Assembly (NCBI RefSeq): GCF_964213995.1
Contig: NW_027590623.1
Span: 124,001-188,000 of the forward strand
Length of the DNA: 64,000 nucleotides
Direction: 5' to 3'
DNA from: Mustelus asterias
Lineage: Eukaryota
Of this stretch, positions 3,822 to 34,440 are shown one piece after another. Every line of letters starts with the position of its first letter. The stretch's first letter is position 1. The notes below the pieces were generated by a model that saw only the letters and a program-made list of their open reading frames with translations, was not told the origin of the DNA and searched no databases. A program made the translations under genes and the position numbers.

Positions 3822-4160
3822 ATGATAGTCCTCCGGGTTTATAGATTCTCTTTGCTGTTTCTCACTCTGATCTGCACCGCGATGACTGTTGAACAAGAGT
3901 TGCTGCAGCTCCCTCAGTGGATGGAAGTTAGTGAAGAGGGAATCGTAACCATGAATTGTACCAGCGCCAGTGTGATGAACATGGTGCATTGGTACAGACA
4001 GTTCCCAAATCAACCACCTCAACATCTGGTGATGGCCATAAGAGAAACCAATCAACACGAGAGGATCACTGCCACAGTCGGGGGAGACAACAAACTCAGT
4101 GTCCTGACTGTGAGAGACACGCAGCTGACAGACACTGCCGCCTATTCCTGCGCCGTGAGG
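3822..4160 (+). CDS. TCR V segment with leader and V in a single exon
   Basis: MIVLRVYRFSLLFLTLICTA runs without intron into ...TMNC...HWYRQFP...DTAAYSCAVR. RSS: CACAGTG 4161-4167, 23 bp, ACAGAAACC 4191-4199. Confidence 0.88.
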
Positions 4161-4925
4161 CACAGTGTAACAAATACATGGAGAGCTCGTACAGAAACCT
4201 ACACCGAGTAGCAACTGAGCTCTACTGTGTTTGGGGAATCGGGTTTTAAGTGGCGTGGTAATAATAAGGGCTGGGGGATTGTGCACGAAAGCAAGTGCAT
4301 CTCACAGAGGAAGAACTAAAGCGGAACAGAAATGAAGAAATGTGGAAACAAACACAGAGAAATAAAAAGCAAACAGATAAAGGCACAGAGGGAAAATGCA
4401 ATAATGATAACGAGCAAAGAACAAAACATTCGTGAACGATGGAAAAAGAAATGAAATAAAGTGTAAAATAACCAGCGTCAGACACAGAGGTTAAAAATTA
4501 GGGCAAGTTATAAATGAAAATAATCCCAAATAAAGTTGTATTTAATTGTTTTATCAAAATTCATACTTCGTTTATAGTTAGGCAGTTAAATTTTCTGATA
4601 AAGTTTCCTAAGAACTGGTTCTTGGATATTGCTGCATTGAAAAATTAACAATTTCCTCAACGTTCTGATGCTGCAAAATTCTTTAAAATTCCTAGATGCT
4701 GGAATGTTCTTGCCTGCTACTTGGGAAATGTGTTCATTTTCGGCAAACTGTGTCTAAACCAGCAACATACCGTGACCATATCAACTGGGGCCCAGAAGCG
4801 GAGAGTGGAGATGAAGGGAGGGTTATACATTAATTCAGGGTTTTCACAGTAACATCATTGCAGTGTTAACGTAAGCCTACTTGTGACACTGATAAATCAA
4901 CTTTAAACATAAACTTCTATTTGAT

Positions 4926-5405
4926 AGCGCTGGAAAGAGTGCAGAGGAGATTTACCAGGATGCTGCCTGGTTTGGAGGGTAGTCTTATGAGGAAAGGTTG
5001 AGGGAGCTCGGGCTGTTCTCTCTGGAGCGGAGGAGGCTGAGGGGAGACTTAATAGAGGTTTATAAAATGATGAAGGGGATAGACAGAGTGAACGTTCAAA
5101 GACTATTTCCTCGGGTGGATGGAGCTATTACAAGGGGGCATAACTATAGGGTTAGTGGTGGGAGATATAGGAAGGATATCAGAGGTAGGTTCTTTACGCA
5201 GAGAGTGGTTGGGGTGTGGAATGGACTGCCTGCTGTGATAGTGGAGTCAGACACTTTAGGAACATTTAAGCGGTTATTGGATAGGCACATGGAGCACACC
5301 AGGATGGTAGGGAGTGGGATAGCTTGATCTTGGTTTCAGATAAAGCTCGGCACAACATCGTGGGCCGAAGGGCCTATTCTGTGCTGTACTGTTCTATGTT
5401 CTATG
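4926..5405 (+). mobile_element. CR1-type LINE 3' fragment
   Basis: ORF2 C-terminus (LGLFSLERRRLRGDLIEVYK...FFTQRVV..WN.LP) plus (TTCTATG)n tail; near-identical copy at 16755-17103. Confidence 0.85.
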
Positions 5406-5504
5406 ATAGATATGTGGAAATATCATGAAAAGACAAAATGGGAGTGAGCCCATCATACAATGATTTCTGAAATTGATTTTCAATGTAGATGTTACTTTTC
5501 ATTG

Positions 5505-5735
5505 TTAATCAGTCACAAGTAAGGCACTGCAATGATGTTACTGCGCAATTGCCTTAGTCGCCACATTCCGGTGCCTGTGCGGGTCAATGTACCTAACAGC
5601 ATGTCGTTCAGAATGTGGGACGAAACCCACGCAGACACGGGAAGAATGTGGAAACTCCACACAGACAGTGAACCAAACCTGGGCCCCTGGCACTACGAGG
5701 CAGCAGTGCCACCCACCGTGCCGCCGTGCCACCCA
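5505..5735 (-). mobile_element. V-SINE, degenerate
   Basis: Same head and core as the other SINE copies. Confidence 0.7.
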
Positions 5736-5881
5736 CGTGCTAGTTATGTTAGTTAGAAACAACTAACATAATTCCTCAGTTGCTGCTCCTCCTCCTGTTG
5801 GTGTTGTGTTTTGTGTTGGTATTTTATTGATGGCTCTGTGACCCTCACGGGATGAGTAATTGTTCCTGATTAGCACAGGAA

Positions 5882-5900
5882 GCGCGCCCTCCGCTGGTCA
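5882..5900 (-). promoter_or_regulatory. RSS-adjacent CTCF-like motif
   Basis: TGACCAGCGGAGGGCGCGC, 22 bp past the nonamer of the 5965-6228 pseudogene. Confidence 0.6.
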
Positions 5901-5964
5901 CTAACTGGAACTCCCAGTCTGCAGTTCTTGTCCGGAATCCGCTCGATCTCTGCAGCAGAGTGTG

Positions 5965-6228
5965 GGCGGCAGAGCAGATAAATGCGGGGCGCTCTCGGAG
6001 AAAAGCACCCCAGCGATATTTAAAGGAACCATTTTGCTTTTGTTCAAACCAACAGGGAATCAGTCCAGAAAACTTGAGAAGTGCGTTTCCGTGCTGTATA
6101 ACGTCAACAGACACTTTGAGCCTTCCCCGGCAGACTGGGGTGTACCAGAACCGTGTTCGACCAGCTGTCGAGTAACTGCAATCCAGTGTTACTGTCTGTC
6201 CTTCCTGAACCCTAAATTCAGAAGTACC
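5965..6228 (-). pseudogene. TCR V pseudogene (29636/46568 family)
   Basis: VQEGQTVTLDCSYST...FWY, then a frameshift. VPLNIA is retained, the second Cys is lost and no leader is present. Degenerate RSS 5923-5964 with ~26-bp spacer. Confidence 0.8.
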
Positions 6229-7419
6229 TGGGGTAGTTTATCTTTGCTATTGTTTCCTGCAACAAAATATAGTATTGATTAAATGTCTGGTAGAGAACGC
6301 TGGGAACGGGCAGTGGCGATTTAAACACAGAATCATTGGACAGCAAGATGAACAGTATTAGTAAAGAACACCGGGACAACTTGCTTCCTATTGTAGAGAT
6401 AGTTACACTTCTCGGGGCTAAATGGGTCAAATGATATCGTGGAAAAGAAAGAACATAATGAACATAATGAGGATGGAGTAGGTTCAAAGGGCTGAAAGAC
6501 CTCCTCATGCTCCTATTTTCTATGTTTCTATTGGACACTGAATCATAGTCATTCATTCCTGTAACACAAATACGGAATGCTTCAGGGACTAGATGTAACC
6601 CCTGGATGTCACACTGACCAGTTAAAAATATACTTGCAGCGAGAAAATGCTGCCTGCTTTCGTATTGGACAGAAAGTAATAAAACGCTCCAATTGTGTTG
6701 AATGCTGCTGTCTGACAGAGTCCCACCCACTTTGCAATCTGGCTTCACTTATTGAGAACTGGCGTTTTATCCAGGAACAGGATTGGCTTCTCTGCTCGAA
6801 CTGCTGATTATTACCCACCAATAAACGAGAGCTGCAGACATTTTTTTCTGATTCGTGATCTTTCTCTCGGTGACTTTTCTGCTCTCTCGTTCTCGTTGTC
6901 ACGGTCTCTGTCTTTATGACGAGACAGCCATTCATTTAGGAAATTTCCTCACCGCTTTCAAATGGTTGGCAGCGAATACAAATAATTCAGAGCGGCGAAT
7001 ATATTTTTACCAATTCAAAAAACATGCCGTTACTCGAAACCGCCACCAGGCGGCGTGACCATTATTGCGGTGTTTTCACATTGACGCCCAACAGTCAATA
7101 AATATCCTTTCTGTTTCATTCAACAAACCGTGGTGACCAGAGACCATGAGGATGACACGGCACATATAAATTGACGAGTAAGGTATAGAAAGAGAAACTG
7201 AATAAGCGTTTAAAGATGAAGGAGCAAGAGGATGTGTAGGTTGCTGTGCAGAGAATGAGGATGGAGATCAATGATGTTAATCTGCACCTACAACCCCGTT
7301 AAATTCTGTTGTAGACGGAACAAAGTGGCAATATGTGCACGTTGTCAAAATAGAAACGCTTCCTTCCTGTCAGTGCGTCAAAAAGCTAACCTTCCATTAA
7401 TAAGTACTCTTACATCATC

Positions 7420-9720
7420 GAAAGTTAAATAACGCAGTTGTCCAGCTCCATCCATGTGTTCCCAAAAAGCAGAATTTTTATGGTTTCTTTTCAAGGGTCC
7501 CGAAGCTTCTGTAATAATTTGTTAATCAGAGGGCGACAAGTGAACTTCCTCAGTTACAAAAGTGGGTCTTACTCTTCCTCCTCAACAACGATGCACGTTT
7601 GTCCTGATGGGAGTCGTGAATTTAGTTTCAACGGAAGATGGTGTTAATATCTTTTTTCATGCTTTTTTTTCTTTAGTGTATCCCCCCTGTCACCACTAGA
7701 TGGAGCTTTGCTCTTAAAAAATGTCATCTTCTCAAACCGACTGCTAATCTCAGACTTTTCTGATCCTGAGGTCTCATTTGATTCTGATGATGAGTTTATT
7801 TCGTCAGAATTAATTTCAGTTTCAGAATTTTAAGCTTCCTTTTTAGTTTTATGTTGAATTGTTCTCTGTTTGTTGTTTTCCTGATCTGTATTTTGAAGAT
7901 CCTATTCTTTTTCCCCAGCCTCTTTTACTGATCGATTCCTTGACGAAGTGGCCAAAATGATTCCAGCCATCGCTGATTTTTGTTTAATTTGCTGATTCCA
8001 CCAATCTTTTTGAATCTCATCTGATGCACCAGGGTTATAGCCCTGGCTAATCATTTTCTTGATTAATTTACCGTTTTCATTGGCAAAGGTTTTAATTATG
8101 AAACCAGCAATTCCCCATTCCGGATTATTCCCTTCTGCCATTTTATATATGAAAATTGCTTTATTTTTTAAAAGAAAAATTATTTAAGAGAACTGACTTA
8201 TTTTCTGCTGTAACTTTTTACAGTTTCTCCAATGTTAAACTACCGTATAACTCTTAATCTCTATTTCTTTTTAAGTTGTATCTTCAACATTCTTCAAATT
8301 ATTCGTCTTTTGACGACCATTTATTTCTCCAACATTTTTAAATGGTCTTTTTTAACTAATAAGAGCGCGGTTTTTATTACACTGCTGTCTCAACGAAACT
8401 AACTCCCTTTACCTTAGTTTCTTGTTTTATGCGCCCTTCACTATTTCTATACTATCGGCGCGCCCTTTTCTGAACCTGCTGTAGGTGGGTAAATTGCTAT
8501 CCCTCTCCCCACTTTTGCGCCGAGACTCTTTAATAACTCTATACAATCAGCGCGCCCTTTTCGGAACCTGCTGTAGGTGGGTAAGTTGCTATTCCTCCCC
8601 CCACTTTTGCGCCAATAAACCTCTTTTAAAAAATGCCTTTGTGACCCACAAGGGGTCCGGATGTCTAACGGATCCGGTGACTCAGAGTGCCTCCCCTCTA
8701 CTAAAAAAGGTGAGCAATATAATGTGTGTACTCACCGTTCCAGGGAAATTTTTCATTCTATCATCGGCTCCAAGATCATCCCGTATCGTTGCCAAATTGA
8801 TGTGGGAAATTCTTCCAAGGTGGCCTGATTGATTTAAAGACTCGACCTTTTTACTAATATTTTACTTTCACAAAGGCAATGAAAAATGTATTCAATTCAA
8901 GGAAAATCTTCAATTTAACAATTTTTATTAAGACATTGAAATGTCTGAATAACAAGTTAATGTTAAGAAATGAATACAAACATACAATTAAAACAAGACA
9001 AAGAAGAACAACTTAACATTAAGAAATTAATACAAACATACAATTGAAATAAGACAAATCTCATTTTGGCCCAAAATGGGAGTCCTAGGTTCCACCTACA
9101 CAGCTAATGCGCCAGCAGGCTTTTCACAAAGATCTCAAATTTCATGCCAAAAAAGTAGAAGAGTTTTACGTTTTTATCAGATTAATCTGCCAACACTTAA
9201 TTAACAGTAAATTTATTCATTCACTGAGCTGTCAATCTACTGATGACATGTCTTTCAATCAATAATTCTCTGACACCTTCCAATATCACTTCAGTTATTA
9301 GTCAGTCTGTTTTTACAGACGTTCCCTCCCAAAAAATAGCTCCTTATGATTCATCATTTTCTCTCAATTTAAACCGGTTCTATTGAAGGCACCTTTAACT
9401 ATTGGATTTATTTTCCCCGGTTTGGATATGCATTGGTAATTTTCATTGTTGCATTATTTGTGCCTGACTTGTGTTGATATTTTTCATGAATACATCTTCT
9501 ATTTTATTGGTATTTTACAAATTCATTTCTCAACAAGCCGAATCTCATTTCTTAGAGAACATTATTAATATATTACTTAAATATTTCGCATTATTTCTCA
9601 AGCCATATATTAATACATTGGCTGCTAATTATCTTTAAATTGGGGGTATAAAATTAAACAGAATTCTCAACTACAAATTCAGTTCTTCTAACTTTTTTTT
9701 CCTCTCTGATGTTGACCTGC
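7420..9720 (-). mobile_element. Degenerate LTR retroelement/ERV 5' portion (LTR, PBS, leader, gag remnant); outer limits approximate
   Basis: On the minus strand: LTR end ...CA at 8799-8798, PBS-like TGGCAACGATACGGGAT 8794-8778, donor GGTGAGT ~8750, leader direct repeats ~8458-8610, stop-interrupted ORF from 8141 (MAEGNNPEWG...), AATAAA ~8925. The LTR terminus resembles that of the solo LTR at 56167. Confidence 0.6.
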
Positions 9721-10220
9721 TGTCTGACTTCATAGAATCATAGAATCCCTACAGTGCAGAAGGAGGCCATTTGGCCCATCGAGCCTCCACCGACCATAAT
9801 CCCACCCAGGTCCTGTCCTATCACCGTAACCCCACATATTTAATCTCCTAATCCCCCTACATGTGTCCCTCCATTCACACAAGAACTATTCAGTCTGCAC
9901 AGCAGCTTCAGTCTCATTCCCCCAGTTTGTTTTCCACCCTTTATCACTCCAATTCTTCTCCCACATACTTCACATCCTAACATTACAATACAAACTTGAT
10001 AATCTCTCCAATTTGACATTTGTTCAGGGGTACAGACAGCAGATAAATTATCATTACACTCCCAACCTGGGCTATGGTGATACATTTACACATGATCTCA
10101 TTTCACAATAAAACCCACACACCGGTTTTAAGTTTGCTTCCGTTATTGCTGTTGTGCCCCGCAGGTTGATTAAAGTGACATTGACATCAACACTTTATGG
10201 TCTCTGTCTCTCTCTGCGTT

Positions 10221-10460
10221 NNNNNNNNNNNNNNNNNNNNNNNNNNNNNNNNNNNNNNNNNNNNNNNNNNNNNNNNNNNNNNNNNNNNNNNNNNNNNNNN
10301 NNNNNNNNNNNNNNNNNNNNNNNNNNNNNNNNNNNNNNNNNNNNNNNNNNNNNNNNNNNNNNNNNNNNNNNNNNNNNNNNNNNNNNNNNNNNNNNNNNNN
10401 NNNNNNNNNNNNNNNNNNNNNNNNNNNNNNNNNNNNNNNNNNNNNNNNNNNNNNNNNNNN
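10221..10460. other. Assembly gap (240 N)
   Basis: Run of N. Confidence 1.
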
Positions 10461-10571
10461 NATGTTTTTGGTTTTATTTTATTTGATTTATTATTGTCAC
10501 ATGTATTAGTATACAAAGAAAAGTATTGTTTCTTGCGCGCTATACAGACAAAGCATACATTTCATAGAGAA

Positions 10572-10690
10572 CAGTAAGAAGTCTCACAACGCCAGTTTCA
10601 AGTCGAACATGTTTATTTGGAATCACGAGCTTTCGGAGCGCTGCTCCTTCATTAGGTGAGTGGAGAAGTAGGTTTTACAAACACAGCATT
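10572..10690 (-). mobile_element. Penelope-like terminal fragment with mutated hammerhead motif
   Basis: Similar to 32453-32560 and 42866-43020; minus strand reads TCAC-CTAATGA-AGGAGCAGCGCTCC-GAAA-GCTC-GTGA. Confidence 0.6.
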
Positions 10691-10899
10691 ACACGTACAT
10701 GGAGAAAGAAAGGAGCGAGTGCAGAATGTAATGATACAGTCATAGCTAGGATGGAGAGAAAGATCAATTTAATTAAAACATTGTTATAGAGTTCAAAAGA
10801 GTTAGAATATCGTTTTAAAAGCATAGACCAAGAGTAAAAGATAGCATTAGAGAGATGATGGGCACAGCTTGCAACAAGGTCCGACGCCATCTTGATTTT

Positions 10900-11845
10900 T
10901 TTGGTTTGTCTCTGTGTTTATCTGAGGGTGTGTGTGTGTGTTTGTTGTCTGAGTGTTTATGTCTATGTCTCCGTGTGTGCGACTTTGCTTGTGTCTATTT
11001 GTCTGCAATCGTGTGACTGTTTCTGCCTGAGGCTGTGTGTGTGTGGGTGTGTGCCTGTGTATGTTTGCTTGTCTGGTCATGTGTGTATATGTGTGTGTGT
11101 GTTATGCTGAAAGTGTGTGTCTGTGAGTTTGCGAGTTTGCCTATGTTGTTTGACTGAGATCATGTGTGTGCCCATATTTGACTGTGTGCATGTGTTGCTG
11201 TGTGCGTGACTGTGTTTGCCTGAGTGTTTGTGTGTGTGTGTTTGTGCGTGTGTGTTTTTCTGTGATTGTATGTATGTCTGAGTGTTTGACTGAGACTTGT
11301 GTCTAAATGTGTGTGTTTTGTCTGAGAGTTTGTGCTCATCTGTGTGCTTGCATCAGAGTGAATTTGTATGCATATGCGTGTTCGTTTGATAGGACATCTG
11401 TGTGTGGGTCTGTTTCTGTATGTTTGTCAGCGTGTGTGTGTGTGTGTGTCTGTGTGCATGCATGTCTGAGAGCATATGTTTTCTTTGTGTGTTTGTCTGA
11501 GTTTTTCTCTCTATATGTCTATGTTCACGAGTTTGCTTGTGTGTTTGCCTGTGTGTGTGCTTATGACTGTGTGTTTGTCTGTGAGTGCATGTGTATGCCT
11601 GTGTTTTTCTGAGAGTGTGTGTCTGTGTGTTTGCAAGATTTCCTGTGTCTGTTCGTCTGAGAAATGTGTGCCTGTATTTGCCTGACTGTGTTTGCGTGTG
11701 TGTTTGTCTGTATTTGTCTGAATGCGTGTGTGTGTTTGTGTCTGTGTGGTTGTCACACACACACTGTCTCTCACGCAGTCGCTCTCTCTCTCGCACACAC
11801 TCTCTCTCTCGCACACACTCTCTCTCTCGCACACACTCTCTCTCC
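10900..11845. repeat. Degenerate (TG)n low-complexity tract ending in (TC)/(CA) repeats
   Basis: Direct inspection. Confidence 0.9.
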
Positions 11846-12510
11846 TGATAGAATTCTACAAGATTATGAGGGGCATGGACAGAGTGGATAGTCAGAAGCT
11901 TTTTACCAGGGTGGAAGATTCAAAATCTAGGGGGCATAGGTTTAAGGTGTGAGGGGCAAGGTTTAAAGGAGATGTACAAGGCAAGTTTTTTTACACAGAG
12001 GGTGGTGGGTGCCTGGAACTCGCTGCCGGGGGAGGTCGTGGAAGCAGATACGATAGTGAGTTTTACGGAACGTCTGGACAAATACATGAATAGGATGGGA
12101 ATAGAGGGATATGGTCCCCGGAAGGGTAGGGGGTTTTAGTTCAGTCGGGCAGCATGGTTGGTGCAGGCTTGGAGGGCCGAAGGGCCTGTTCCTGTGCTGT
12201 AATTCTCTTTGTTCTTTGATAAGCTCGTCAACATCTTTTCCAAAAGGGAGGGGAGTCTAAAACTAGAAGACATAGGTTTAAGGTGAGAGGGGAGAGGGTC
12301 CAGAGGGCAATTCTTTTCACACATAGGGTGGTGAGGGATTGGAACAAGCTGCCAGAGGTCGTAGTAGAAGCGGACACAATTTTATATTTTAAAAAGCATT
12401 TAGACAGTTATTCTGGTAAGATTGGTATGGAGGGATTTGGGCCAAAAGCAAGGCATTTGATACGAGCTTAATGGTAAAAACTGGGTGGCAGGGAAAAGTT
12501 GGGCCAAAGG
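11846..12510 (+). mobile_element. Two CR1-type LINE 3' fragments
   Basis: IEFYKIMRGMDRVD...RGHRFKV and FTHRVV..WN.LP motifs. Confidence 0.75.
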
Positions 12511-12579
12511 GCCCATTTGTATCTGAGCTCTGTTTTCTGCCCGGAAACCATTTCTCAATCCATCCCAGTATTTTCCAAA

Positions 12580-13075
12580 TTTGTGGATTGGACACAGTAA
12601 ATTGCCGATTCCTGTCCAAAGCTGTGTTGGTTCGGTGGATTAAGGTAAATGTGTGGGGTTACGGGGATAGGGCTGGGTCAAGGGCCTTGGTAAGATACTG
12701 TGTCAGAGAGTCAGTACAGACTCGATGGGCTGAATGGTCTCCTTCTGCACTGCAGGGATTCTGTGACTCTCCTATTAAGATCCCTTTGTCATTTGAAGCT
12801 TCCAGCTAAAATGCTGACAATGCTGCCTATTTCTGTGCACTTTGGCAAACGTTCTGTCTCATCACCGGGCGACACGGTGGCACAGTGGTTAGCACTGCTG
12901 ACTCACAGCGCCAGGGATCTGGGTTCGATTCCCCGCCTCGAGTGACTGTCTGTGTGGAGTTTGCACGTTTGCAAAATTGCCCCTTAGTGTCAGGGGGATT
13001 CGGGCCTGGGTGGGATTATTGTCGGGGCAGGCTTGTTGGGCTGAATGGCCTCATTCTGCAGTGTCGGAATTCTAT
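12580..13075 (+). mobile_element. Two partial V-SINE copies
   Basis: tRNA-like head at ~12867 and tails at ~12700-12765 and ~13000-13075. Confidence 0.7.
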
Positions 13076-17390: not shown

Positions 17391-17881
17391 ATGTTTCTGC
17401 TCATACTGGCGGCGCTCTTGCACAGTAAGTACTGGAAAACGTTCATCAAACCAGATAAACATATTGATGGCAACTTAATTAACCATCTGAAATATCCCTG
17501 TAATGCATAGAATGGAGGTTCCACAAACTATCGCAGATACAAGCACATTTACATTAACTCTTGACATTTAATTCCTCTATCTTCGCAGGCGGACTGTGCG
17601 CAGATCCAGTAACTCAGTCACCGGTGACAATAACCGCATCAGAAGGGGGTTCGGTGCAGTTGGATTGTAACTAGACAGACAAGGATATGTACAGCATGCA
17701 ATGGTATCAGCAGAAACCCGCACAACCACCGACATGGATTATTTCTAAAATATTAGCAACGAAGGATGATGAAGTTTCAGGACGATACCTGGCGGCTGCT
17801 GACAGGTCGAAGCAGAACGGTTACCTCAATATCAGCGCCCTCAGTGTGGAGGACGGGGCGGTCTATTACTGTGCAGTGAGG
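17391..17881 (+). pseudogene. TCR V with a single nonsense codon (L 17391-17424, V 17589-17881)
   Basis: Leader MFLLILAALLH with intact splice sites; DPVTQSP...LDCN*(TAG 17672-17674)...QWYQQKP...DGAVYYCAVR. RSS: CACAGCG 17882-17888, 23 bp, ACAAAAACC 17912-17920. Confidence 0.9.
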
Positions 17882-18700: not shown

Positions 18701-19395
18701 TCCTGTATCATGCAATGGTTCAAAGAGATGCAAAAGGGCATCGTGGACAGGCCTCCATACACAAAGTGTGTTTATAATCTGTACATCACTCCCACAAGGG
18801 AAGCTAAACAAAGAGATGATGCAGAAAGAAATGGATGGAAATTCTGAGAGATTGAGACGAAGTCAGGCGAATTACGCTCTCGAGGATGTAAAACAGACAG
18901 ATCAATTTTGTAGAAAGTTTATTTTTCTAAGGTCTGTACTCCAACTTTTTGTATGTGATACTAACCACTAATTGTCACATTTCAGTTCAGTTGATTATTT
19001 GCAGTTTTTTAACCGTGTGTTCCAGATCAGAGCGATGGAGATTCTGTTACTCAGCGGGAATCCTCACTCACACCGCCAGAGGGAAAATAGACAAGGATCC
19101 TTCGAATATTGACTCACCGAATAGCACGATGATTTCAATCTGGAAGCACCGTGGAACACGTGCTCCCCGGATGACATTTCCACAGAAAATAATCGAACTT
19201 AAATGTATTTTGTCCCTTCTCTTTTGATATTAAACAGTAAACCCAAATCAGGGACAGGTCTCGCTGATCGGGTGACTGTGGCGCGTATCCAAGGGAGAGA
19301 GTGATTAAAGTCCCAGCTCTCTACACAGGCTGTACACGTTCCGGGTGATCGCGGCAGGTTTTTGTACGGCCCTGTACGGTCTTTGCTACACTGTG

Positions 19396-19898
19396 CCTCC
19401 ATCGCACAGAAATAGGTGGCGGTGTCTGTCAGCCGAGCTTCACTAACATTCAGAACGCTGCGTTTCTCTGAGAAACTGTACTGAGCCGTGATCCTGCCCT
19501 GATCGCTGGTACCGCTCACCAGGTGCTGCACGGTTCTGTCTGGATTTTGTCTGTACCATTGAAGGATCTTTCCAGTTACTGTAGCTGAACAGTTCAACGA
19601 TGCAGTGGCTCCCTCGGTAACAACCACTGACTCCGGAGACTGTGATAGCTCTTCACTGCCAGCGGCATCTGGGAAGAATATGTACATTTGCAGTAAGAAC
19701 ATATCGTACTATAATGTAGCACAATAAAGTACCATTGTATTCACAATTCGAGATAATACAATAAAGCTGAGTACAATTTAACAGAACATAACATTGCTGA
19801 GGTGTGAAATATTGCTGTCAGAAATAGTGACCACACTTACACTGAGGGAACAGTAAGAAATCCAGGAAAATAATCACCAAAGTGAAGCTCAGGAACAT
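19396..19898 (-). CDS. TCR alpha/delta V segment, open (L 19898-19841, V 19668-19396)
   Basis: Leader MFLSFTLVIIFLDFLLFPQ; EELSQSP...LNC...QWYRQNP...DTATYFCAME. Consensus RSS: CACAGTG 19395-19389, 23 bp, ACAAAAACC 19365-19357. Confidence 0.92.
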
Positions 19899-20114: not shown

Positions 20115-20243
20115 CATCCGGTATTGTGACGTCAGAACATCCGGCATTGTGACGTCAGAACATCCGGCATTCTGACGTCAGAACATCCGGCATTCTGACG
20201 TCAGAACATCCGGCATTCTGACGTCAGAGCATCCGCGGCATTG
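20115..20243. repeat. 23-bp tandem repeat (5 copies plus partial), each with a CRE and an ETS-like site
   Basis: CATCCGGCATT(G/C)TGACGTCAGAA units starting at 20115, 20138, 20161, 20184 and 20207. Confidence 0.92.
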
Positions 20244-20249
20244 GAACCT

Positions 20250-23262: not shown

Positions 23263-23446
23263 GAGAAAGGCATCGAAAACGAAAAAAAAAGGTGTTGCAG
23301 TGATATTGCAAATGTAAGTTCCGATCATTAACTAATGTAATTGCAACTGGACCACACCAGTTGCTGTTTTTGAGAGTTGTCTTTTGTTGCAATGTTAAGA
23401 ATCTCCGTCACTCTCTCTGTGGAAACTGAATTACCCGCGTGTGTGC

Positions 23447-23465
23447 GCGCGCACCCTGCTGGGCA
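23447..23465 (-). promoter_or_regulatory. RSS-adjacent CTCF-like motif
   Basis: TGCCCAGCAGGGTGCGCGC, 22 bp past the nonamer and preceded by GCAGTTCC. Confidence 0.5.
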
Positions 23466-23527
23466 CTAACTGGAACTGCCTGTGTGGGGTTTTTGTACGG
23501 CAATCGCTATATCTCTGCAGCAGTGTG

Positions 23528-24025
23528 GGTTTCATGGCACAGAAGTACACGGCGCTGTCGGAAATCAGTGTGTTACTGATCGTCAGCTCGGTAGTCTTGT
23601 TCTTTTTATCAAATTTGGAAGAAAACCGGTCATTGAGGTCGGGATTCTTTTGCACATTCTCTCCAATAAGCTGAAACATGTACACTGGAGCTTTCCCGGG
23701 CTGCTGACTGTACCAGTACACATAAGGGCTGGAATCGCTTGTTTTCAAAGTGCAGGTTAGTGTGACATCATTTTCCTCTTTAACCTTTATTACAGGATCC
23801 AATTGTTCCACTTCGTCTTGGTGGCTCCATTCTAACAGAAACAACAGCAATATGACAATCAGAGTTAGCCTCAGATTAAACGATACAATTATCATCATCA
23901 CTATTGTTTTATCAACAAGAATATCTGGGTTACAGCAGTCAGGAGGAGCATGTAGTTTTACTGGGAAGAAAATACTTACTGAGAAGTGAGAGAATGATGA
24001 GGATCGGAGTGAAATAGTTCACCAT
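23528..24025 (-). CDS. TCR alpha/delta V segment, open (L 24025-23980, V 23831-23528)
   Basis: Leader MVNYFTPILIILSLL; QDEVEQ...LTC...YWYSQQPGK...DSAVYFCAMKP. RSS: CACACTG 23527-23521, 24-bp spacer, ACAAAAACC 23496-23488. Confidence 0.92.
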
Positions 24026-25713
24026 GATGCTTCCTGAGTCTGTAACTCTGCAATGAGTGAAATCCTGTCAGAGACAGAAAGACACTGTTCCACTGCACTG
24101 CTGATCCAACCAATGAGAGGAATGGAGCAGCGGCAGCAATCCGTCCAATCACACAATAGGTTCAGAGTGAGAGCAGAAAACGGAAGTCGTGGGCGGGGAT
24201 GCAGTAGACAAAATATTGAGTGAAGTGTGCGGCAGATTCAGCTGCACCCGGAACGGAAATAGCGAGACTTCCATCTCCGGAATCTGTCACCATTCTGCAC
24301 CTGCTCACTGTCCAAGTGACTGAGAAGAAATAGAGAGGGAGGGGCAAAACGGGGCCAGGGACATGGACAAAATAGAAACATAGCGTATCAATGCAGGAGA
24401 TGTGGCCACTCGGCCCATGGTATCTTTGCCTGACAGAATGCAGAATTGATGTGGAGAATTCAGAATTACAGAATTCTTCAATTCAGCTTTCAAACCCCGC
24501 ATCTCTCACAGTGACTGCACTTTTCTGCTTTCAACTTATCTCCCATTCCCTTCTGAAACTTACTGTTATCTCTTCTTCCGCCATCTCTTTCGACACCGCA
24601 GGGATAGGGCCTAGATAAGAGTCGGTGCAGTCTTGATGGGCCGAATGGCCTCCTTTTGCACTGTCGGGATCCGATGACCACCTTCCAAGTTTAACAAATC
24701 GCAGAGTAATCAATTAATCTAATCTTTCCATTGCCCTCTCCCCTCCTAAAGTAGACGCTTGTGTTTTCCAAAGTTCTGCCGGCGGAAACTGTGACATGCG
24801 ATTTACTTTAACAAAACCACATGATGTTGAGCACCTCAGTTCGGTCTCTGTTCTACCTCCTTTGATATTAAGAGATGAACTCCTGTGTCACAGTGGATCG
24901 CGTCTGTGCCTCTGAGGCAGAAACTTCGGCTTCAATTCGAAAGCCAGTACCTGATAGCTGAGGATATTTATTGGAGCCTCAGCCATTACTATCCACAACT
25001 CCAGACAATAACATGGAAAAAAAGTGAACAGAGTACATAAGAAGATGTGCGGGTTAGGTTGATTGGCCAGGTTAAAAATTGCCCCTTAGAGTCCTGAGAT
25101 GCGTAAGTGAGAGGGATTAGCGGGTAAATATGTGGGGGTAGGGCCTGGGTGGGATTGTGGTCGGTGCAGACTCGATGGGCCGAATGGCCTCCTTCTGCAC
25201 TGTAGGGTTTCTATTCTATAAGAGTTTTGCCGCTGTAACTCAGACTGCTCCGAGGGAATGGTTTGAACGGAGGACAGGTTGTTATAGGAGCACAGAGCCC
25301 TATTCCAATTCGGGCTGTGATGTATTTCAAACTCGCCTCCTTGTCCTTCGCGTGGTTCAGTTCATCGCGCTATGGGTCGGACCTGTCTCTTTGCAGAGAA
25401 CTCCAGAAGAATTGCAGTTTGCATAGTCCATCTGCATCGCAATTCCTCATCCCTGGCATTATTCTGGTGTATTGCCGCCGCCCTTATTCCAAAGTCATTA
25501 CCCGCTTTCGAATCGTTTACCCAAGATTGTACACAGAGTCCTTGTTACCGTTAAACGAAGATGTCTGCGGTTTTAGAATCATAGAATCATAGATTTATTG
25601 GTTTACAAATCAAAGCAGAAATATCAGACAACATCTTCCAGATATTTAAATTGGACCTAATGATACATAGTCCTTGCTGTTTTTCCTGGTAAGCCAGAAA
25701 GTGGTATAAAAGT

Positions 25714-26047
25714 GGGGCGGCACGGTAGCGCAGTGGTTAGCACTGCTGCTTTACAGCTCCAGGGACCTGGGTTCGATTCCTGGCTTGGGTCACTGTCTGT
25801 GTGGAGTTTGCACATTCTCCTCGTGTCTGCGTGGGTTTCCTCCGGGTGCTCCGGTTTCCTCCCACAGTCCAAAGATGTGCGGGATAGGTTGATTGGCCAG
25901 GTTAAAATTGCCCCTTAGTGTCCCGGGATGCGTGGATTAGCGGGCAAAATATGTAGGGATATGGGGGTAGGGCCTGGGTGGGATTGTGGTCGGTGCAGAC
26001 TCGATGGGCCGAATGGCCTCGTTCTGTACTGTAGGGATTCTATGATC
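25714..26047 (+). mobile_element. Full-length V-SINE (mirror copy 50477-50808)
   Basis: GGGGCGGCACGGTAGCGCAGTGG head with A/B boxes, core and tail. Confidence 0.9.
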
Positions 26048-26750
26048 TATAAACTCTTGTAGAATGTAGAATCGGCAATTGTTGAAAGCAATCTTGATTC
26101 TTGCAGGTGAAAAAAATCTGGACACTTGTCCCTATTTTAATGTTGCCACCGTTTGGCGAAGCACGTGCGTATAAATTATAAAATGGGACGTTTGGGGATG
26201 ATAACAGGATATTCCTCTTGTCATGGTACGAATGATTATAATATAATTAAGATTTCACCTGAAGAGGGAGGGACATCAAACTAAATCGTTGATGCTTCAG
26301 TTGAAATCCTGGAGAAAACGGAGCCAGAGCCGAGAGGCGGGAGGACCTGGTTACATTTGAAACGAATATTTGAATTGCAGCTTCAGTAGAATTCGCATGA
26401 CTGATCATTTCAATTTGAAATCAATGCCTTCATTGATGAACAGTTAAACTTTAAACACTTTTATCAATGAAAGTAGCTGCAGTAAAGAAGCGCGCTGGGT
26501 TATTGACAACTGACTTGTTCATAAGTGACCCGAAAGAGAAGCGGCGGCGGATCAACAAACCACATCCTGACATCCGAAGAACAGAGTCTGATTCCAGCCA
26601 ATCAGACTGCAAAAAACTGAAACTTTATCTGGTGCTCCATGAGTGGCGGATTGAAGCTGTTGATTCACTCCGTGCTTTTCTGCTGCGAGTTCTGCTCCGG
26701 TTCCCTTCTGACATTTTTATTGTATTACTTCTGACATTTTTGTTGTATTA

Positions 26751-27167
26751 ATGGATCTGTTCGTTTTCATTCTGATTCTACTAACTTGTAAGTGCAGGAA
26801 ATTTACTCGGTCACTTGTAGAGACTGTTTATTTAAAAACGTTTTGCTCCAGTGCCTCATTGTCTGAATGTTTTTTCATATCGGTGTCGCTCGGACCAAGT
26901 TTCACAAACTCCCACAGCGAGAACAGTCCAGAGCGGGGATTCGGTGCTGATAAACTGCAGTTATGAGATGTCCAGCATTTATGGAATGTATTGGTACAGG
27001 CAAAAACCCGGTCAGAGACTGGAGTGGATAATAAGAAGATTATCGAATGGCAAAGAGAGAAAAGACCGGTTCGAATTGGAACTTTCCACTGCGGGCAAAC
27101 GGGGCCAGTTGGTTATTGGAAACACGGAGAGCGCGGATGCCGCTCTGTATTACTGTGCGATAGAGCC
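26751..27167 (+). CDS. TCR V segment with open V exon but deleted canonical acceptor (L 26751-26787, V ~26879-27167)
   Basis: Leader MDLFVFILILLT; DQVSQTP...INC...YWYRQKPGQ...DAALYYCAIEP. RSS: CACACTG 27168-27174, 23 bp, ACAAAAACC 27198-27206. Intron ends 'ttcat|atcgg' versus 'ttcatag|atcgg' in the mirror copy. Confidence 0.8.
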
Positions 27168-28527
27168 CACACTGAGAGGAAAGACGCTCGTCACTGTACA
27201 AAAACCTCACGCCTGTTTTCAGTTGCTGCAGCAATCCTGCCTCGTACCTCTCCTTTAAACCTCGCCCCTCACACCTTAAACCTGTGCCCCCGAGTAATTG
27301 GCTCTTCCACCCTGGGAAAAAGCTTCTGACTATCCACTCTGTCCATGCCCCTCATAATCTTGTAGACTTCTATCAGGTCTCCCCTCAAACCTCCGTCGAT
27401 CCAGTGAGAACAAACCAAGTATTTTTCAATGAGATTCCCCCTTCATCTCTCTAAACTCCATCGAATGCAGATCCAAAGTCCTCAGCTGTCTGCGGTTTTA
27501 TTTGATCGGCCTCACACGCTCAGATTGAATGTTATTTATTTTTTGTGACGGTTTCTCAAGAACACTAATCTCATTGTGCGTGACCTGGTGACGCTGAACT
27601 CTTTATCCTCCGCGGTAGATTTCAGAGGGTTGCGATTGTAAATAAAACAATACGCGATTTGTACAACAGTGGATTTAGATGTTGATCCCGTGAGGGGAAT
27701 AAATGCAGCAACACAGAAAGCTTCAAGCTGAGGAATGAAGATAAACAAAGAACAAAGAACACAGAACAGTACAGCACAGGAAACAGGCCCTTCGGCCCTC
27801 CAAGCCTGTGCCGCTCATTGGTCCAACTAGACGAATGGAAAGACAGTGGGTGAATTCGAGACCGTGATAGAAGTCAAGGCACAGATTAGGAGGGACAGAT
27901 GGAGTTACAGGGATATAAACACGAGGAAAGGGAATGAGAGAAATGTGCGAGAGGCAAGGAGATAAATAGAGGGACAGACAGTAAGATAAATGAGGGAGAG
28001 ACGGAGACAGGAAGGGAAATAGATGAAGGTTCGGTGAAGGAACTGTGAAGGGAGCAGTTGCAGATTTATGGAGACAGTACAGACGAAAGCATAAAGAGAG
28101 AACAAAGATGTGCGGGTTAGGTTGATTGGCCGTGCTAAAAATTGCCCTCAGTGTCCTGAGATGTGTAGGTTAGAGGGATTAGCGGGTAAATGTGTAGGGA
28201 TATGGGGGTAGAGCCTGGGTGGGATTGTGGTCGGTGCAGACTCGATGGGCCGAATGGCCTTTCTCTGCACTGTAGGGTTTCTATGATTTCTCCATCTGTT
28301 CCTCCTAATCTGTGCCTTGACTTCTATCACGGCCTCGGCCTCGAGTTCACCCACTGTCTTTCCATTCGTTCATCTCATTCCTCAACACAACATAATATAA
28401 CATAGTACATGATACCGACAGGATTATTTCCGAGAGCTTCTGGATGCCCGAGGAAACCAGATCAACAACATAACCGCCGAGTAAAGCTTCCCGGACCCGC
28501 TGCAGTAAACACACAAACATGGTGAGG

Positions 28528-28546
28528 CACCGCCATCTGGCGGCAA
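28528..28546 (-). promoter_or_regulatory. CTCF-like motif in repeated intergenic module
   Basis: TTGCCGCCAGATGGCGGTG; mirror copy 47993-48011. Confidence 0.65.
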
Positions 28547-29396
28547 TCTGAGGTAACTGGTCATTTCCTGCAAAATCATCGAATTCTCAAATTACAGAAG
28601 GTCGTTACTACTGGTGATTATGTTGCATTATTCTTGTTCATCCTTTTACTATTCCAATGCAATTGAACACAGTTGAACGTATACATGAGAGATAATAACA
28701 TCGTTATTTTAATTGCTGGCGATTCGCTTTATTTAATTAATAGTGGTTATAAAACTCATTCTAAACAATATGAAGCCCTCAAGATTCCGATAAGATGCCT
28801 TTTCTAAAATAACAACACAAGATGTAAATATGACCCTGGATTCACATTCATCTCCTATCTTCTTTAGTTATTTACATTTAAATATTTCCATCATAATGTT
28901 ACCTCGTAACTTCTGGTTATTAACGTTTTCTACATTTGTTGCACCAAAAGAATGAGTAACTTAGTGGATTCATTGAAATAGGAGAGTGAGGGAAATCGGA
29001 TTGTCTGAACTCTGAATTTTAGGGAGAAGGGGAGAAAGATAAGAACGGAGAGCCAGTGCGAAGACAGAGACGGTCAGAAGCAGAGCAATGGGGGCGAGAC
29101 AAACAGAGGCGGAATGACAGAGCGAGATAGACAGGCCACAGACGGAGAGAGAGCAGGGGAATCTGAGAAAGACAGGGAGAAAGAGAAACTCAGAACTTAT
29201 TAGTCGAGCTAACGCTGATTGATGCCCGACGATCATCAATCCTGAGAAAGCGGCCAATCCTGTCGCTGGGAAACGCCCCATAATTTCTGAGTAAATTACG
29301 TTTCCGCTGATGTGAATTTCCGCTTGAATATTAGAACAGAAATGTCAACACATTTCAAATACTGCTTCATTTCTGCCGAACCCGAAACCAGACACC

Positions 29397-29939
29397 ATGT
29401 GCTCCTTACTTTGTTTGCTGATAATAATGGTCTTGCTGCCCGGTGAGTCAATAAACTCTGACAAAGTGCCATCCTGACTTGAAACATTCTCTCTGTTCGC
29501 CTCTCACAGATGTTGTCAGATCTACTGAAAATTTCGAGCATTTTCTTTTTTTGAGTCAATGTTTAAATGATCAGTGTCTGTCCCATGGGCTCTCTTCCCT
29601 CCCAGATATTGAGTGTGTTCTGTGTTTTGTTACAGGTGCAAATGCTGAAGATTCAGTGTTTCAAGATCGATCTGAATTATCGGTTCTGGAAGGACAGAAC
29701 GTAACACTGGACTGTAAATGCTCGACAGCTGCTTTTCAAGCTGTGTTCTGGTACATCCAGTATCCCGGGCAATCTCTGAGATATTTGATGAAGATATATG
29801 GCTCGGGCAATACCGATAAGTCTCCGGATTTCTCAGATAGATTCTCGGCTGCTTTGCACAAAGGAAACAATACTGTTCCTTTAAATATCGCCAGAGCTGT
29901 TCTGTCCGACAGCGCCGTGTATTTCTGTGCCATGAAGCC
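29397..29939 (+). CDS. TCR alpha/delta V segment, open (L 29397-29442, V 29636-29939)
   Basis: Leader MCSLLCLLIIMVLLP; EDSVFQ...LDCKC...FWYIQYPGQ...DSAVYFCAMKP. RSS: CACACTG 29940-29946, 22-bp spacer, ACAAAAACC 29969-29977. Confidence 0.92.
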
Positions 29940-29999
29940 CACACTGGGACAGATGAAGCGAACACCGCACAAAAACCCCAGACTGGGAGTTCCGGTTAG

Positions 30000-30018
30000 T
30001 GATCAGCAGAGGGCGCTC
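30000..30018 (+). promoter_or_regulatory. RSS-adjacent CTCF-like motif
   Basis: TGATCAGCAGAGGGCGCTC, 22 bp past the nonamer. Confidence 0.65.
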
Positions 30019-32452
30019 CCGCACAGGATCACAAACAAAATATCAAAACAAAACACAACACTCAACACGAACATCTGAGCCACAGTTGAATTTTTAACTT
30101 GCAACAATACTAAAAATACATTCACAGTTCCTTAACTCACGCTTCAACCTTTGATGACATTTTCTTGCCTGTGTGAATTATTGTGCAGCACTTTCACCAT
30201 CTTCACTCTCCTTTTCAAGGTCTCTTTGATCAACGGGTCTATTTGATCAGAGTATTTTGCTGCCTAAGGGACAGTTTATATTGGCATATACATTTCGCAA
30301 GGTTGTCATTGTGCTATTTAAAACAATCACTGAGAACAAGTTGCCATCAATGTTCATTCTCATTTTGAATGTCTGTCAAATGTTTTCTGACACAAATCAC
30401 AACCCAGTGTTTCTCTGTTACAATAATCAGACCAGCGACTTCATTCCCACCCCTGGCCCCCAACAATATAGCGATTTTCCGAATGAGCAAACTGATTATA
30501 TCTCAGCTTGGGATATTTCTGCTCACTGAAACCCAGGTCTCCAGCTATAGGGCTAAAAACACCACTGCGACACGTTTTTTTTTCTTTCAAAAATATACTT
30601 TATTCACAAAAAAAAACTCTCCAATAAAACATTGCAAAATGGCACTGTAAGGCAGCAGTAACCACTGTGCCACTGTGTTCAGTAAACCTTTTTCATTCGA
30701 CAAACTTCTTTTTAAATTTACTGTCCAGAGAATTCTGCCTTTACCACAAAGAGGTCAGGGAACAGATAGAGAGAAACCATTTGTGTCCAGAACATTGTGA
30801 ACATCCTTTTACTCTGGTTGTCTTTGATCCTCAAGTCTTTTTCTGTTTGTTTTAATCATGTTCTGTTTCATTAATAAACTTTTATCAGTAAAAATATTTG
30901 ATTTTTCTGGACTTTTCCTGATGAGATTGATGCACTTTCGGGAAAGTGGGTGAGAGGGGTTGGCAGGCTCTTTAACAGAAAGTGAGTCCCTCTAAGGTAA
31001 TTGACAAAGGAGCCAGAGGGGGAGATGAGATTTTATTTTATTTTTTGACGCAGTGAGTTGTTCTGATCTGCCTGAAAGCAGATTCAATAGAATCGTTCCA
31101 AAGGGTAAAGACTTGAAAGGAAAGAATTTGCAGGGCTGTGGGGAAAGAACAGAGCAGTTGGATGAATCAGAGAGTCCTTTCAAAGAGATAGCAGAACATG
31201 ATGGGCTGAATGGACTCCTCCTGCAGCCTGGCAATCTCAGCCTCCTGCTTTTGTGCAGGTTAAAAGGGACAGATTTCATTGCAGCCTCTTCCCTGTATCT
31301 GTATTTAAAGAGACAGGTTTCTCTTTAGTTCTGAGTGACCGATATAATTGGTTGGAGGCCCATTTCCCAGTCAGTCCTCCAGCACCTTCCTGTCTCTCTA
31401 TTAGTGCGTCGCCCATGGCAGTTTCCCAACTGGGGCGCAGGCCCCATTATTCTCAGCTAAATTCAGCCCTCAGCTCCGTCGCCTGGCTGTCATTAACACG
31501 AGCAATAGAGAGACAGAAAGGTGCCACAGGCTCAAATGGGAAGTCGAAACGTGTGGCTTTAAATGAACTGTTAGCATCTCTGACGATCAACAATTTTTAA
31601 AAATGAATTCTGAACCCAGTAAACAAATTAAAGAATCACATGACAAAACTTCAAGTTTTCTGATGTTTATTCCAACAAACTGGAGGCAACAATGATTAAA
31701 CACTTTTTTATAGGGAACATAGCCCTGAAACTGTAAAATTAAACTTTGCCCTTTTACTCTTAACACCATTAAATATCCACTCAATGGATATATTTTATTT
31801 TGCCTTGGAATGTTGACACTCCTTCTCCAAAAACCAGCCCAAAGTGATTCTTTCCTCCCCAAGGGTTTATTTCCATTGTTTTCCTTTTCCAGTCTGGCAA
31901 CCTTTAATCCCAGAACTGTCCTTCACAGTGATGGTTCTCCTGGACATTTTCCCACTAACACAAGCAAGGCGAATCTTCCAGCCTTGGTTCACAATTCTCA
32001 GGAATTTGTGACCAACATTCGACATCGGAGCAGAAGTCGGCCATTTGGCCCTTTGAGTCTGCTCCCCCATTTATTTACATCATGGCTGATCTATTTGTGT
32101 AGATTTCCACATTCCCGTTCTACACCCGATATTTTTGATTCCCTTATCCAACAAGAATTGGTATAAAGGCAAAATTCTGCTGTTGTTGGAATCTGAAACA
32201 AAAACAGAAAATGCTGGACAATCTCAGCAAGTCTGACAGCATCTGTAGAGAGAGAATGGAGGCAACATTTTGAGTCAGGATTACTCTTTGTCAGAGGTGA
32301 AGGCAAGGAAAATCGGAAAAAATTGGGAAGCAATCTATTAAACCTCCTCTGAACCACTTTCAATGCATTTGTATCATTTCTTAAATAGGAGACAAAGCTG
32401 CAGGCCAGTGTTCAAGATGCAGTCTCAGCAACGCCCTGTATAACTGAAGCAG

Positions 32453-32560
32453 TGATGTGGAGATGCCGGCGTTGGACTGGGGTAAGCACAGTAAGAAGTC
32501 TCACAACACCAGGTTAAAGTCCAACAGGTTTATTTGGTAGCAAATACCATAAGCTTTCGG
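32453..32560 (-). mobile_element. Penelope-like terminal fragment
   Basis: Near-identical to 42866-42972 and begins at the same base (TGATGTGGAGATGCC). Confidence 0.6.
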
Positions 32561-33257
32561 TAACAGAATCTCCATGACCCAGATCGGAAAAACATGTTCG
32601 AACGGAAACAGAGCAGACCGACTGAATCCGTAAGATTCAGTTCAAAAACAAGTTTGTAAAATTAAAGTAAATATGAAATGCGTTTGGTCCATAATTACCT
32701 GTCAGGAAGGTTCCCCGCACAATCCAGATGCTGAGTAGCAGCATCGTTGTTGTCTGCTCTGTAAAAGGGGAGTTGGATATTTGAAGACACCCTTTCCAAA
32801 CTTCACCCTGTATATTTTGCTGCCGTGTCTCGGGATGCTCTCACTGCATTTCCCTGTGTCCGCGGGGGTGCTGTGGGGTTGGCAGCTGGTGAACTGGCTG
32901 CAAGTGAATGGATTCACCCCGAGCTGGGTTCACTCAGTGTTCTGATGGGGCGAATGGTTTCCTAGTTAGACACGTGGGACGAGATTTGTAACCGGAAACA
33001 TGGGGTCACTGATGGGGTTTATTTATTCCGGCTTCAATTCTTCATCTCCGATTCCAGTAGAATCGATGCCAGTGAATGTGGGCGGATAAAACCCGAGTCT
33101 CAGCTTCTTTCATCAGTTCGACAGAGAGACGCCCCAGTTGGACACGAAGCAGGTGTTTGACTCCTTGTAAATTCTTCCGAATATTAAACCCAGGTCCTGG
33201 TTCTAATCTGAACTCCCTGGACAATTACTTCAGCAGAAATTTCATATGATCTGAAAA

Positions 33258-33590
33258 ATGCTCCGAATTTACAGACTCTCTTTGCTGTGTTTCACTCTGA
33301 CCTGCACTGGGGTGACTGGAGCAGATGAGGTGATGCAGCTTCCTCGGCGGAAGGTTGTTAGTGAAGGGGGAACCGTATCCATGAACTGCACCACGATCAC
33401 TACATTTAGCAACATATATTGGTACAGACAGTCCCCGAATCAGCCACCCCAGTACCTGGTGATGGCCACAAGAGAAACCGATCTACACGAGGGGATCACA
33501 GCCTCAATCGGCGGAGGCTACAAATTCAGTGCCCTGACTGTGAGAGACGCCGGAGTTACAGACACCGCCACCTATCTCTGCGCCGTGAGC
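33258..33590 (+). CDS. TCR V segment with leader and V in a single exon (paralog of 3822)
   Basis: MLRIYRLSLLCFTLTCTGVTG-ADEVMQ...SMNC...YWYRQSP...DTATYLCAVS. RSS: CACAGTG 33591-33597, 23 bp, GCAAAAACC 33621-33629. Confidence 0.9.
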
Positions 33591-34440
33591 CACAGTGTGA
33601 CAAACACAGGGAGAGCCCATGCAAAAACCTGCATCGACAGTGAGAGCCACTCTGCTGTGTCTGCAGGAGCGGCAGAGAGAGTGATGGGATTATTTTTTTA
33701 AATCCGTAAAGAAAGGAAATGAGCGCAACACAAAATAAAACATACAATCTAGTTATTGAAATCCCGTTAAAATGAAGATAGTTGAAAACAGATGGAGAAG
33801 AGGAACGAGGGAACATGTAAACTCGACTGAGTGAGAGGAAAACAGAACATAGGAAAGTTCAGTTATCATAGGAGAAGTGGACAGAAAATGAATAAACTGT
33901 TGAAATAGAAATGGAAGAGATTGGAAAGTGTGATAGACAGTTTAAAAATCAGGTAATATCATGAATAAAGAGGGGATGGCCTAGTGGCATCATCGTGAGA
34001 TTATTAACCCAGAAACTCAGTTAATATTCTGGGGACCCCGGTCCGAATTCCTGCACGGCAGGTGGTGAAACTTGAATTCAATAACAATTTAGAATCTACT
34101 GAAACCATGAAACCATTGTAGATTGTCGGAAACACCCATCTGGTTCACTGATGTACTTTAGGGAAGGAAATCTGCCGCCCTTACCTTGTCTGGCCGACAT
34201 GTGACTCCAGAGCCACCGCAATGTGGTTGACTCTCAACTGCCCTCCAACGAGAGCCCGTGACGCCTAAGTCTCACAAATGACTAAAATAAACGCTGATAT
34301 TTACGAGATATTTAAACAGCTGAATTTCCTGAAACACCTCCTAAAATCCGGGCACTGGAAACTGCCCTATCGACAAATTTGCACTTTGCTCATTATCCGC
34401 ACATTGAAAGTTTCACAACCTGTGAACCTGTGATGGGTGT

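What the first reader, a model, noticed from the sequence alone, without database searches (positions are those of the whole stretch)
3822..33629. Intronless leader+V gene family that still carries unrearranged RSSs
Seen: 3822-4160 and 33258-33590 encode a hydrophobic signal peptide in frame with the V domain and no intron. Both are open despite substantial divergence, and both have CACAGTG/23-bp RSSs. Every other intact V here has a phase-1 leader intron. Established: the split leader is near universal. The marsupial TCR-mu Vmuj is intronless but pre-joined to J, and I recall single-exon L-V in a chicken Valpha family (to be verified). Inference: the intron was lost through cDNA of a spliced germline (sterile) V transcript, creating a recombinable V lineage.
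Basis: partly seen in the sequence, partly recalled or inferred. Interest (0 to 1): 0.7.

Follow-up and report, generated by a model that had tools for sequence, protein, structure and literature searches.

The report
Intronless shark T-cell receptor V family
A large family of shark T-cell receptor gene segments lacks the small intron found in almost all such genes yet keeps its rearrangement signals and is found joined to J segments in a related species; it likely arose from one old intron loss, probably separate from the similar family known in chickens.

Summary
Confirmed and much larger than reported. Both V genes are open ATG-leader-V frames with 23-bp RSSs and no splice acceptor at the leader junction. 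The genome holds 67 full-length matches, about 80 loci; 0 of 67 sequences examined has AG at the junction, 50 are intact. In contigs of guessed-RNA runs of a related species, the family runs unbroken from ATG through V and is joined in frame to J segments that match this genome's J-alpha array. The family is one clade beside an intron-bearing family, includes three bamboo shark genes, and excludes a bird TRAV1-type V. The upstream DNA of one subfamily resembles the sister family's 5' UTR, not its intron, favouring exact intron removal; the cDNA route and sterile transcript are unproven. The V at 3822 sits behind a dead V gene whose promoter it likely borrows. The kind is known from chicken TRAV1; I found no shark report, but key shark papers were unavailable. 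The scan had not noted it before.

The parts
3822..4160 (+). V1: single-exon leader+V, subfamily C; position of the missing intron at 3879|3880 (CG, not AG)
4161..4199 (+). 23-RSS of V1 (nonamer with one mismatch)
3312..3319 (+). CRE motif TGACGTCA, with CCAAT boxes nearby: promoter of the dead V gene, likely used by V1 (inferred)
   Evidence: present in 5 of 5 subfamily C loci
3517..3568 (+). Dead leader exon of another V family (start codon reads ATT); likely a non-coding first exon of V1 (inferred)
   Evidence: aligns to the leader exon of the V at -41692; ATG lost in 6 of 6 C/D loci
3569..3725 (+). GT-AG intron of the dead gene (157 nt); candidate 5' UTR intron of V1
   Evidence: GT and AG kept in 6 of 6 C/D loci
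3726..3805 (+). Decayed start of a V exon ending in TAA where the first Cys is expected; holds a 13-codon upstream ORF (ATG 3753)
33161..33257 (+). Stretch upstream of V2 covered by guessed-RNA contigs (likely 5' UTR); last 70 nt resemble the 5' UTR of the intron-bearing sister family
33258..33590 (+). V2: single-exon leader+V, subfamily A; position of the missing intron at 33309|33310 (TG, not AG)
33591..33629 (+). 23-RSS of V2 (nonamer with one mismatch); J sequence replaces it in two contigs
19357..19898 (-). Intron-bearing member of the sister family S (ATG 19898, 172-nt phase-1 intron, RSS heptamer from 19395, tandem CRE promoter upstream): the comparison gene

Best explanation
This is a family of T-cell receptor alpha V gene segments in a shark, with leader and V in one exon and an intact 23-RSS, found joined to J-alpha segments in a related species; it likely began with one exact removal of the leader intron, probably through a reverse-transcribed spliced transcript, and then likely spread by ordinary DNA duplication. 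Shown: gene structure, family size, missing acceptor, V-J joins, shared flanks. Inferred: the 52-nt first part of the leader is the old leader exon fused to the V exon; the event predates the split from bamboo sharks; the founder lost or replaced the CRE promoter of its sister family, and subfamilies C/D use the promoter and start-less first exon of a dead V gene. RAG would cut at the 23-RSS and join V to a 12-RSS J-alpha; the message then needs only the J-C and C splices, and signal peptidase would cut near VTG|A (established rule, not computed).
For: Structure. Family: 67 full-length matches among 150 candidates scored of 1315; 50 of 67 distinct sequences intact, 0 of 67 with AG at the junction. 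Leader under coding constraint: no indel in leader codons across subfamilies, pN/pS 0.67 against 0.75 in V over 18 between-subfamily pairs. Use: contigs of runs X1-X3 cover 33161-33590 and not the RSS or flanks, while run X7 covers all 30 bins; loose ends at 33590 (X1) and 33589 (X3) read in frame as ANNKLVFGSG and RDGTSTKLIFG; they match 13 and 6 germline J places, some in an array of 27 J followed by an alpha-type C gene. One origin: clade with sister S, all other families have introns; clade 97/98 with three Chiloscyllium punctatum genes inside. Exact loss: 70 nt upstream of ATG align to the S 5' UTR at z 4.0-4.4 in 4 of 5 subfamily A sequences, against z 0.6-1.6 to the S intron and at most 2.8 to other families; an S-intron profile had 0 hits. 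Promoter change: full CRE in 0 of 61 A/B/E loci against 14 of 15 S loci. DNA duplication: subfamilies share flank downstream of the RSS.
Against: The UTR signal is seen only in subfamily A (0 of 8 B-E sequences), was sought after I noticed a shared motif, used single-base shuffles, and stricter tests were weak: profile hits E about 1, 3 of 10 sequences at p<0.05 in a banded test, none clearly in local alignment. The leader itself matches neither the S leader exon nor the S intron significantly. No poly(A) tract or insertion scar was seen. The expression data are contigs from another species (mostly 85-95% alike), RNA status is guessed, runs X1-X4 are one study, only 2 joins were listed, and no single contig links leader to J.
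Confidence: 0.6

Rival explanations
1. Intron-tail recruitment: a duplication or deletion removed the promoter and leader exon, and an in-frame ATG in the pyrimidine-rich intron tail became a new leader; the acceptor AG then decayed. No RNA step.
For: 13 of 15 sister-family introns have an in-frame Met in a hydrophobic tail; 3 of 11 other window V genes have such an ATG at leader distance; the Leu-Leu pair lies at the same distance from the junction in both; the CRE promoter is gone.
Against: No significant match of leader or upstream DNA to the S intron in any test, while subfamily A matches the S 5' UTR right up to the ATG.
Confidence: 0.2
2. Exact genomic deletion of the intron by end-joining repair in the germ line, in place, with later promoter turnover. 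Same product, no cDNA.
For: Fits the UTR match and the lack of poly(A) or scar; needs no V transcript in germ cells.
Against: Exact loss is more often credited to spliced-RNA templates (established knowledge, recalled); it does not by itself explain the promoter change.
Confidence: 0.15
3. Not truly intronless: an upstream leader exon splices to the AG at 33323-33324 or similar, and the open hydrophobic frame is chance.
For: That AG is phase 1 and conserved in subfamilies A, B and E; chance hydrophobic frames are common in these introns; B and E carry a donor-like motif about 190 nt upstream.
Against: Contigs bridge the site from the ATG and no joint was listed; subfamily C lacks the AG; the frame is conserved in bamboo shark gene models and in an ORF on a 1001-base metagenome contig; no upstream coding exon was found.
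Confidence: 0.05

Closest known systems
Chicken TRAV1 (V-alpha-1) family; PMC10972964, passages seen
   Same: Leader and V in one exon, unrearranged with RSS, large expanded family (48 genes, all but 3 single-exon), alpha locus.
   Different: Different V lineage: a bird QVQQ-type V (curlew, XP_074019146.1) is rejected from the shark clade, p-AU 0.007 (only one bird row, assigned to TRAV1 by its motif, intron state not checked). Shark subfamilies C/D sit behind a dead V promoter.
Marsupial TRM Vj (TCR-mu); PMC2275272 and PMC6170632, passages seen
   Same: Leader intron missing; retrotransposition or deletion proposed.
   Different: Pre-joined to D and J, so not recombinable; the shark genes keep RSSs and form varied joins.
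Ordinary shark TCR alpha/delta V genes (nurse shark; PMC5931798, passages seen) and sister family S in this genome
   Same: V fold, 23-RSS, mixed-orientation array, joins to J-alpha; S shares the short CDR2 region and is the nearest family.
   Different: They have a split leader; S has a CRE-rich promoter. PMC12227049 (passages) calls the split leader a feature of all antigen-receptor genes. Which published nurse shark V family this corresponds to was not determined.

Membership tests
Functional TRA/TRD V gene segment | Open V domain with first Cys, Trp and YxC Cys | tested here: met
   best non-engineered PDB matches include many TCR alpha chains
Functional TRA/TRD V gene segment | 3' RSS with 23-bp spacer | tested here: met
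Functional TRA/TRD V gene segment | Rearranges to J-alpha and is expressed | tested here: met
   two in-frame V-J loose ends in a related species, J matches in an array before an alpha-type C; RNA status guessed; met for the family, not shown for these two copies
Functional TRA/TRD V gene segment | Split leader with phase-1 intron | tested here: not met
   0 of 67 have AG at the junction; the known exception is chicken TRAV1
Functional TRA/TRD V gene segment | Cleavable signal peptide | tested here: inconclusive
   basic start, hydrophobic core (8-residue maximum 2.38 and 3.04 against 2.67-3.86 in the others), small residues at -3/-1; no signal-peptide predictor was available
Avian TRAV1 lineage | Single-exon leader+V with RSS | tested here: met
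Avian TRAV1 lineage | Common descent with bird TRAV1 | tested here: not met
   one-clade test rejected, p-AU 0.007, one bird sequence
Germline-joined V genes (TCR-mu Vj, shark joined Ig) | V fused to (D)J in the germ line, no RSS | tested here: not met
   RSS follows V in both window genes and in most members
Retrocopy (processed gene) | Exact intron removal | tested here: inconclusive
   UTR match in subfamily A only; leader itself not alignable
Retrocopy (processed gene) | Poly(A) tail and target-site duplication | tested here: not met
   none seen by eye in about 400 nt downstream of 10 members; the event is old, so they could have decayed
Retrocopy (processed gene) | Loss of the parental promoter | tested here: inconclusive
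   CRE in 0 of 61 A/B/E against 14 of 15 S; turnover over long time could give the same

The most novel reading that the evidence does not exclude
A spliced, unrearranged V transcript was reverse-transcribed in a shark germ cell and inserted, RSS included, back into the TCR alpha/delta region; the promoterless copy gained new promoters (once by fusing behind a dead V gene whose leader exon became a non-coding first exon) and grew into one of the main V-alpha families: RNA-mediated birth of a recombinable V lineage, convergent with birds.
Probability: 0.3. Interest if true: 0.65.

Novelty: new member of a known kind. Interest (0 to 1): 0.45.

Why it matters
It shows that the split leader, described as universal for antigen-receptor genes, was dropped at least twice in recombining V-alpha families (birds, sharks), each time followed by a large expansion. 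That makes testable whether losing the intron changes V usage, splicing or germline transcription. Annotation tools that demand a splice acceptor would miss dozens of shark V genes. If the RNA route is right, it is evidence for V transcripts in germ cells, relevant to how sharks gain germline-modified receptor genes.

Tried and rejected
Two word-based protein searches with V2 alone found nothing; an alignment did. Two metagenome scans found no locus, so the DNA around P0002 was not seen. No holder on record as RNA was listed; the four small-share runs are guessed RNA. The first lay was swamped by a repeat at 32500-32560. Run X5 has low-depth contigs across the V end and RSS; it also covers an upstream repeat, so I did not count it as a sterile transcript. 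A Pfam search for the alpha constant domain rang nowhere; C-alpha was found by motif instead. Local alignment, profile and banded tests of leader origin were mostly null. No remainder of the dead V gene was found downstream of V1, so insertion into the dead gene is not shown; a deletion that fused two neighbours fits as well. Never seeing ACA at the junction codon was rejected as evidence: too few independent changes. The elephant shark model P0049 could not be used for intron state; its N-terminus aligns with sister-family intron read-through. Literature: nine searches showed no shark single-exon V-alpha report; Ott 2021, Criscitiello 2010, Deiss 2019 and Criscitiello 2007 were not held. No supplements were read; V tables there (PMC5931798, PMC10322711, PMC12227049) may already list these genes. 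Look-ups in earlier scan notes gave nothing relevant.

Full report
Observation. The window is part of a T-cell receptor V array in both orientations: 13 V genes with a recognisable RSS. That the animal is a shark follows from its nearest named relatives, which are bamboo shark genes. The two genes named in the finding are as described: open from ATG to the heptamer, 113 and 111 codons, 58% identical, each with a 23-bp RSS. At the place where other V genes have a phase-1 intron (3879|3880 and 33309|33310) the bases are CG and TG, not AG. All 11 other V genes gave a spliced model; one has a stop and one has lost its normal acceptor. So further evidence was needed.

Family. A search of the own genome gave 67 full-length matches of 54-100% identity and about 13 broken ones, from 150 candidates scored of 1315 (one search agrees). 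Some may be redundant contigs. Of 67 distinct sequences extracted from the loci I fetched (one is a copy cut by a stretch edge), 50 are intact and none has AG at the junction. They fall into five subfamilies, A (V2), B, C (V1), D and E. The leader has no indel between subfamilies and pN/pS 0.67, like the V region at 0.75, while the upstream DNA has many indels. Subfamilies share flank past the RSS, so the spread was by DNA duplication.

Use. No holder on record as RNA was listed, but four runs of one study of another organism, guessed to be RNA, held a small share. Laid on V2, runs X1-X3 cover 33161-33590 and drop to zero over the RSS and flanks, whereas run X7 covers all 30 bins. Contigs from 33258, 33262 and 33271 run unbroken across both the junction and the AG at 33324, and no joint was listed. 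Two loose ends lie exactly at the V end and read in frame as ANNKLVFGSG (X1) and RDGTSTKLIFG (X3). A further loose end shows a subfamily-B start codon and leader continuous with V. The two J strings match 13 and 6 places in the own genome; L113 shows a 12-RSS and a donor, and on contig C71 the matches lie in an array of 27 J segments followed by an alpha-type constant gene. This shows the family rearranges to J-alpha. Limits: another species, one study, guessed RNA, two joins, no contig from leader to J, and subfamily C not tested.

History. In a tree of 41 V domains the family is one clade next to an intron-bearing family S, present in the window at 19357-19898 (joint support 97/99). With outside proteins, the clade (97/98) contains three Chiloscyllium punctatum gene models and an unnamed metagenome ORF, all with leaders that align residue for residue. 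Their nesting inside the clade has only moderate support (80/84), and their exon structure was not seen. One loss before the split from carpet sharks is the simplest reading. A bird V of TRAV1 type is rejected from the clade (p-AU 0.007).

Origin of the leader. If the intron was removed exactly, DNA upstream of the ATG should resemble the S 5' UTR; if the intron tail was recruited, it should resemble the S intron. End-anchored alignment gave z 4.0-4.4 to the S UTR in 4 of 5 subfamily A sequences (the fifth 1.9), z 0.6-1.6 to the S intron, and at most 2.8 to seven other families; 0 of 8 B-E sequences showed the signal. Stricter tests were weak or null, and I looked after noticing a shared motif. 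I take this as moderate support for exact loss. The route is open. No A-tail or scar was seen. The CRE promoter of S (14 of 15 loci) is absent from 61 of 61 A, B and E loci, which fits a promoterless insertion but also long turnover. An in-place cDNA conversion would keep the RSS whether the template was sterile or rearranged, so the RSS does not prove a sterile transcript (inference).

V1 is a special case. Upstream of it lie a CRE and CCAAT promoter, a leader exon with its start codon lost, a GT-AG intron (3569-3725) and the decayed start of another V exon; the promoter and exon align to the family of the V at -41692. In 6 of 6 C and D loci the ATG is lost while GT and AG are kept. V1 therefore likely uses this promoter and has a 5' UTR intron; a 13-codon upstream ORF may lower its translation. 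This is inferred, not shown.

Comparison. Chicken TRAV1 has the same design, 48 genes with all but 3 single-exon (PMC10972964, passages). Marsupial TCR-mu Vj lacks the intron but is pre-joined (PMC2275272, PMC6170632, passages). A 2025 shark paper calls the split leader a feature of all antigen-receptor genes (PMC12227049, passages). Passages of PMC2193156, PMC5931798, PMC12698447, PMC5192425, PMC10322711, PMC5278385 and PMC5985310 mention no shark case. Nine searches found none, but four main shark receptor papers were not held and no supplement was read, so absence from print is not established.

Verdict. Real, functional as a family, and a new, probably independent member of a known kind. 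Interest 0.45. The RNA-mediated birth with promoter capture is the bold reading, about 0.3 likely.

Noticed in passing
G000:C71:19363814-19397245 (L061-L064): 12 subfamily-B copies in a tandem array of about 2.46 kb period on the minus strand, about 0.9 Mb downstream of the J-alpha array and C-alpha (18.38-18.43 Mb, plus strand); they would rearrange by inversion if the assembly is right.
   Followed up: partly
G000:C546:151070-229396 and G000:C71:18384000-18417000: Two J-alpha arrays on different contigs: a duplicate locus or a second haplotype.
   Followed up: no
G000:C71:7340678-19397245: Family members are spread over about 12 Mb of one contig and many small contigs, suggesting a very large V region.
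   Followed up: no
window 52623 (+), 23898 (-), 42069 (-); S-family introns: Intron tails carry a latent in-frame ATG with a strongly hydrophobic read-through (up to 3.9 on an 8-residue window); could serve as alternative leaders or mislead gene predictors.
   Followed up: partly
window 23500-30000 and 46200-53000: Three V genes appear as a mirrored pair set (23527/52994, 27168/49374, 29940/46264): a large inverted duplication around V2.
   Followed up: no
window 26751-27167 (+) and 49375-49793 (-): The copy at 49374 has a 93-nt leader intron that is in frame and stop-free; its paralogue at 27168 lacks two bases at the acceptor.
   Followed up: no
window 20127-20226: Five tandem 23-bp units each with a full CRE in the promoter of the S-family V; copy number varies among S loci.
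   Followed up: no
L042, L058, L065, L067, about 180-220 nt upstream of ATG: Subfamilies B and E keep a donor-like motif just after a TATA-like box (23 of 26 B, 4 of 4 E); a non-coding first exon is possible.
   Followed up: partly
window 662-934 (+), 5988-6222 (-), 17603-17872 (+): V pseudogenes with a stop or frameshift.
   Followed up: no
L077 (G000:C14:97891534-97891695): A decayed 3' piece of this V family next to a repeat on another large contig: an orphon fragment.
   Followed up: no
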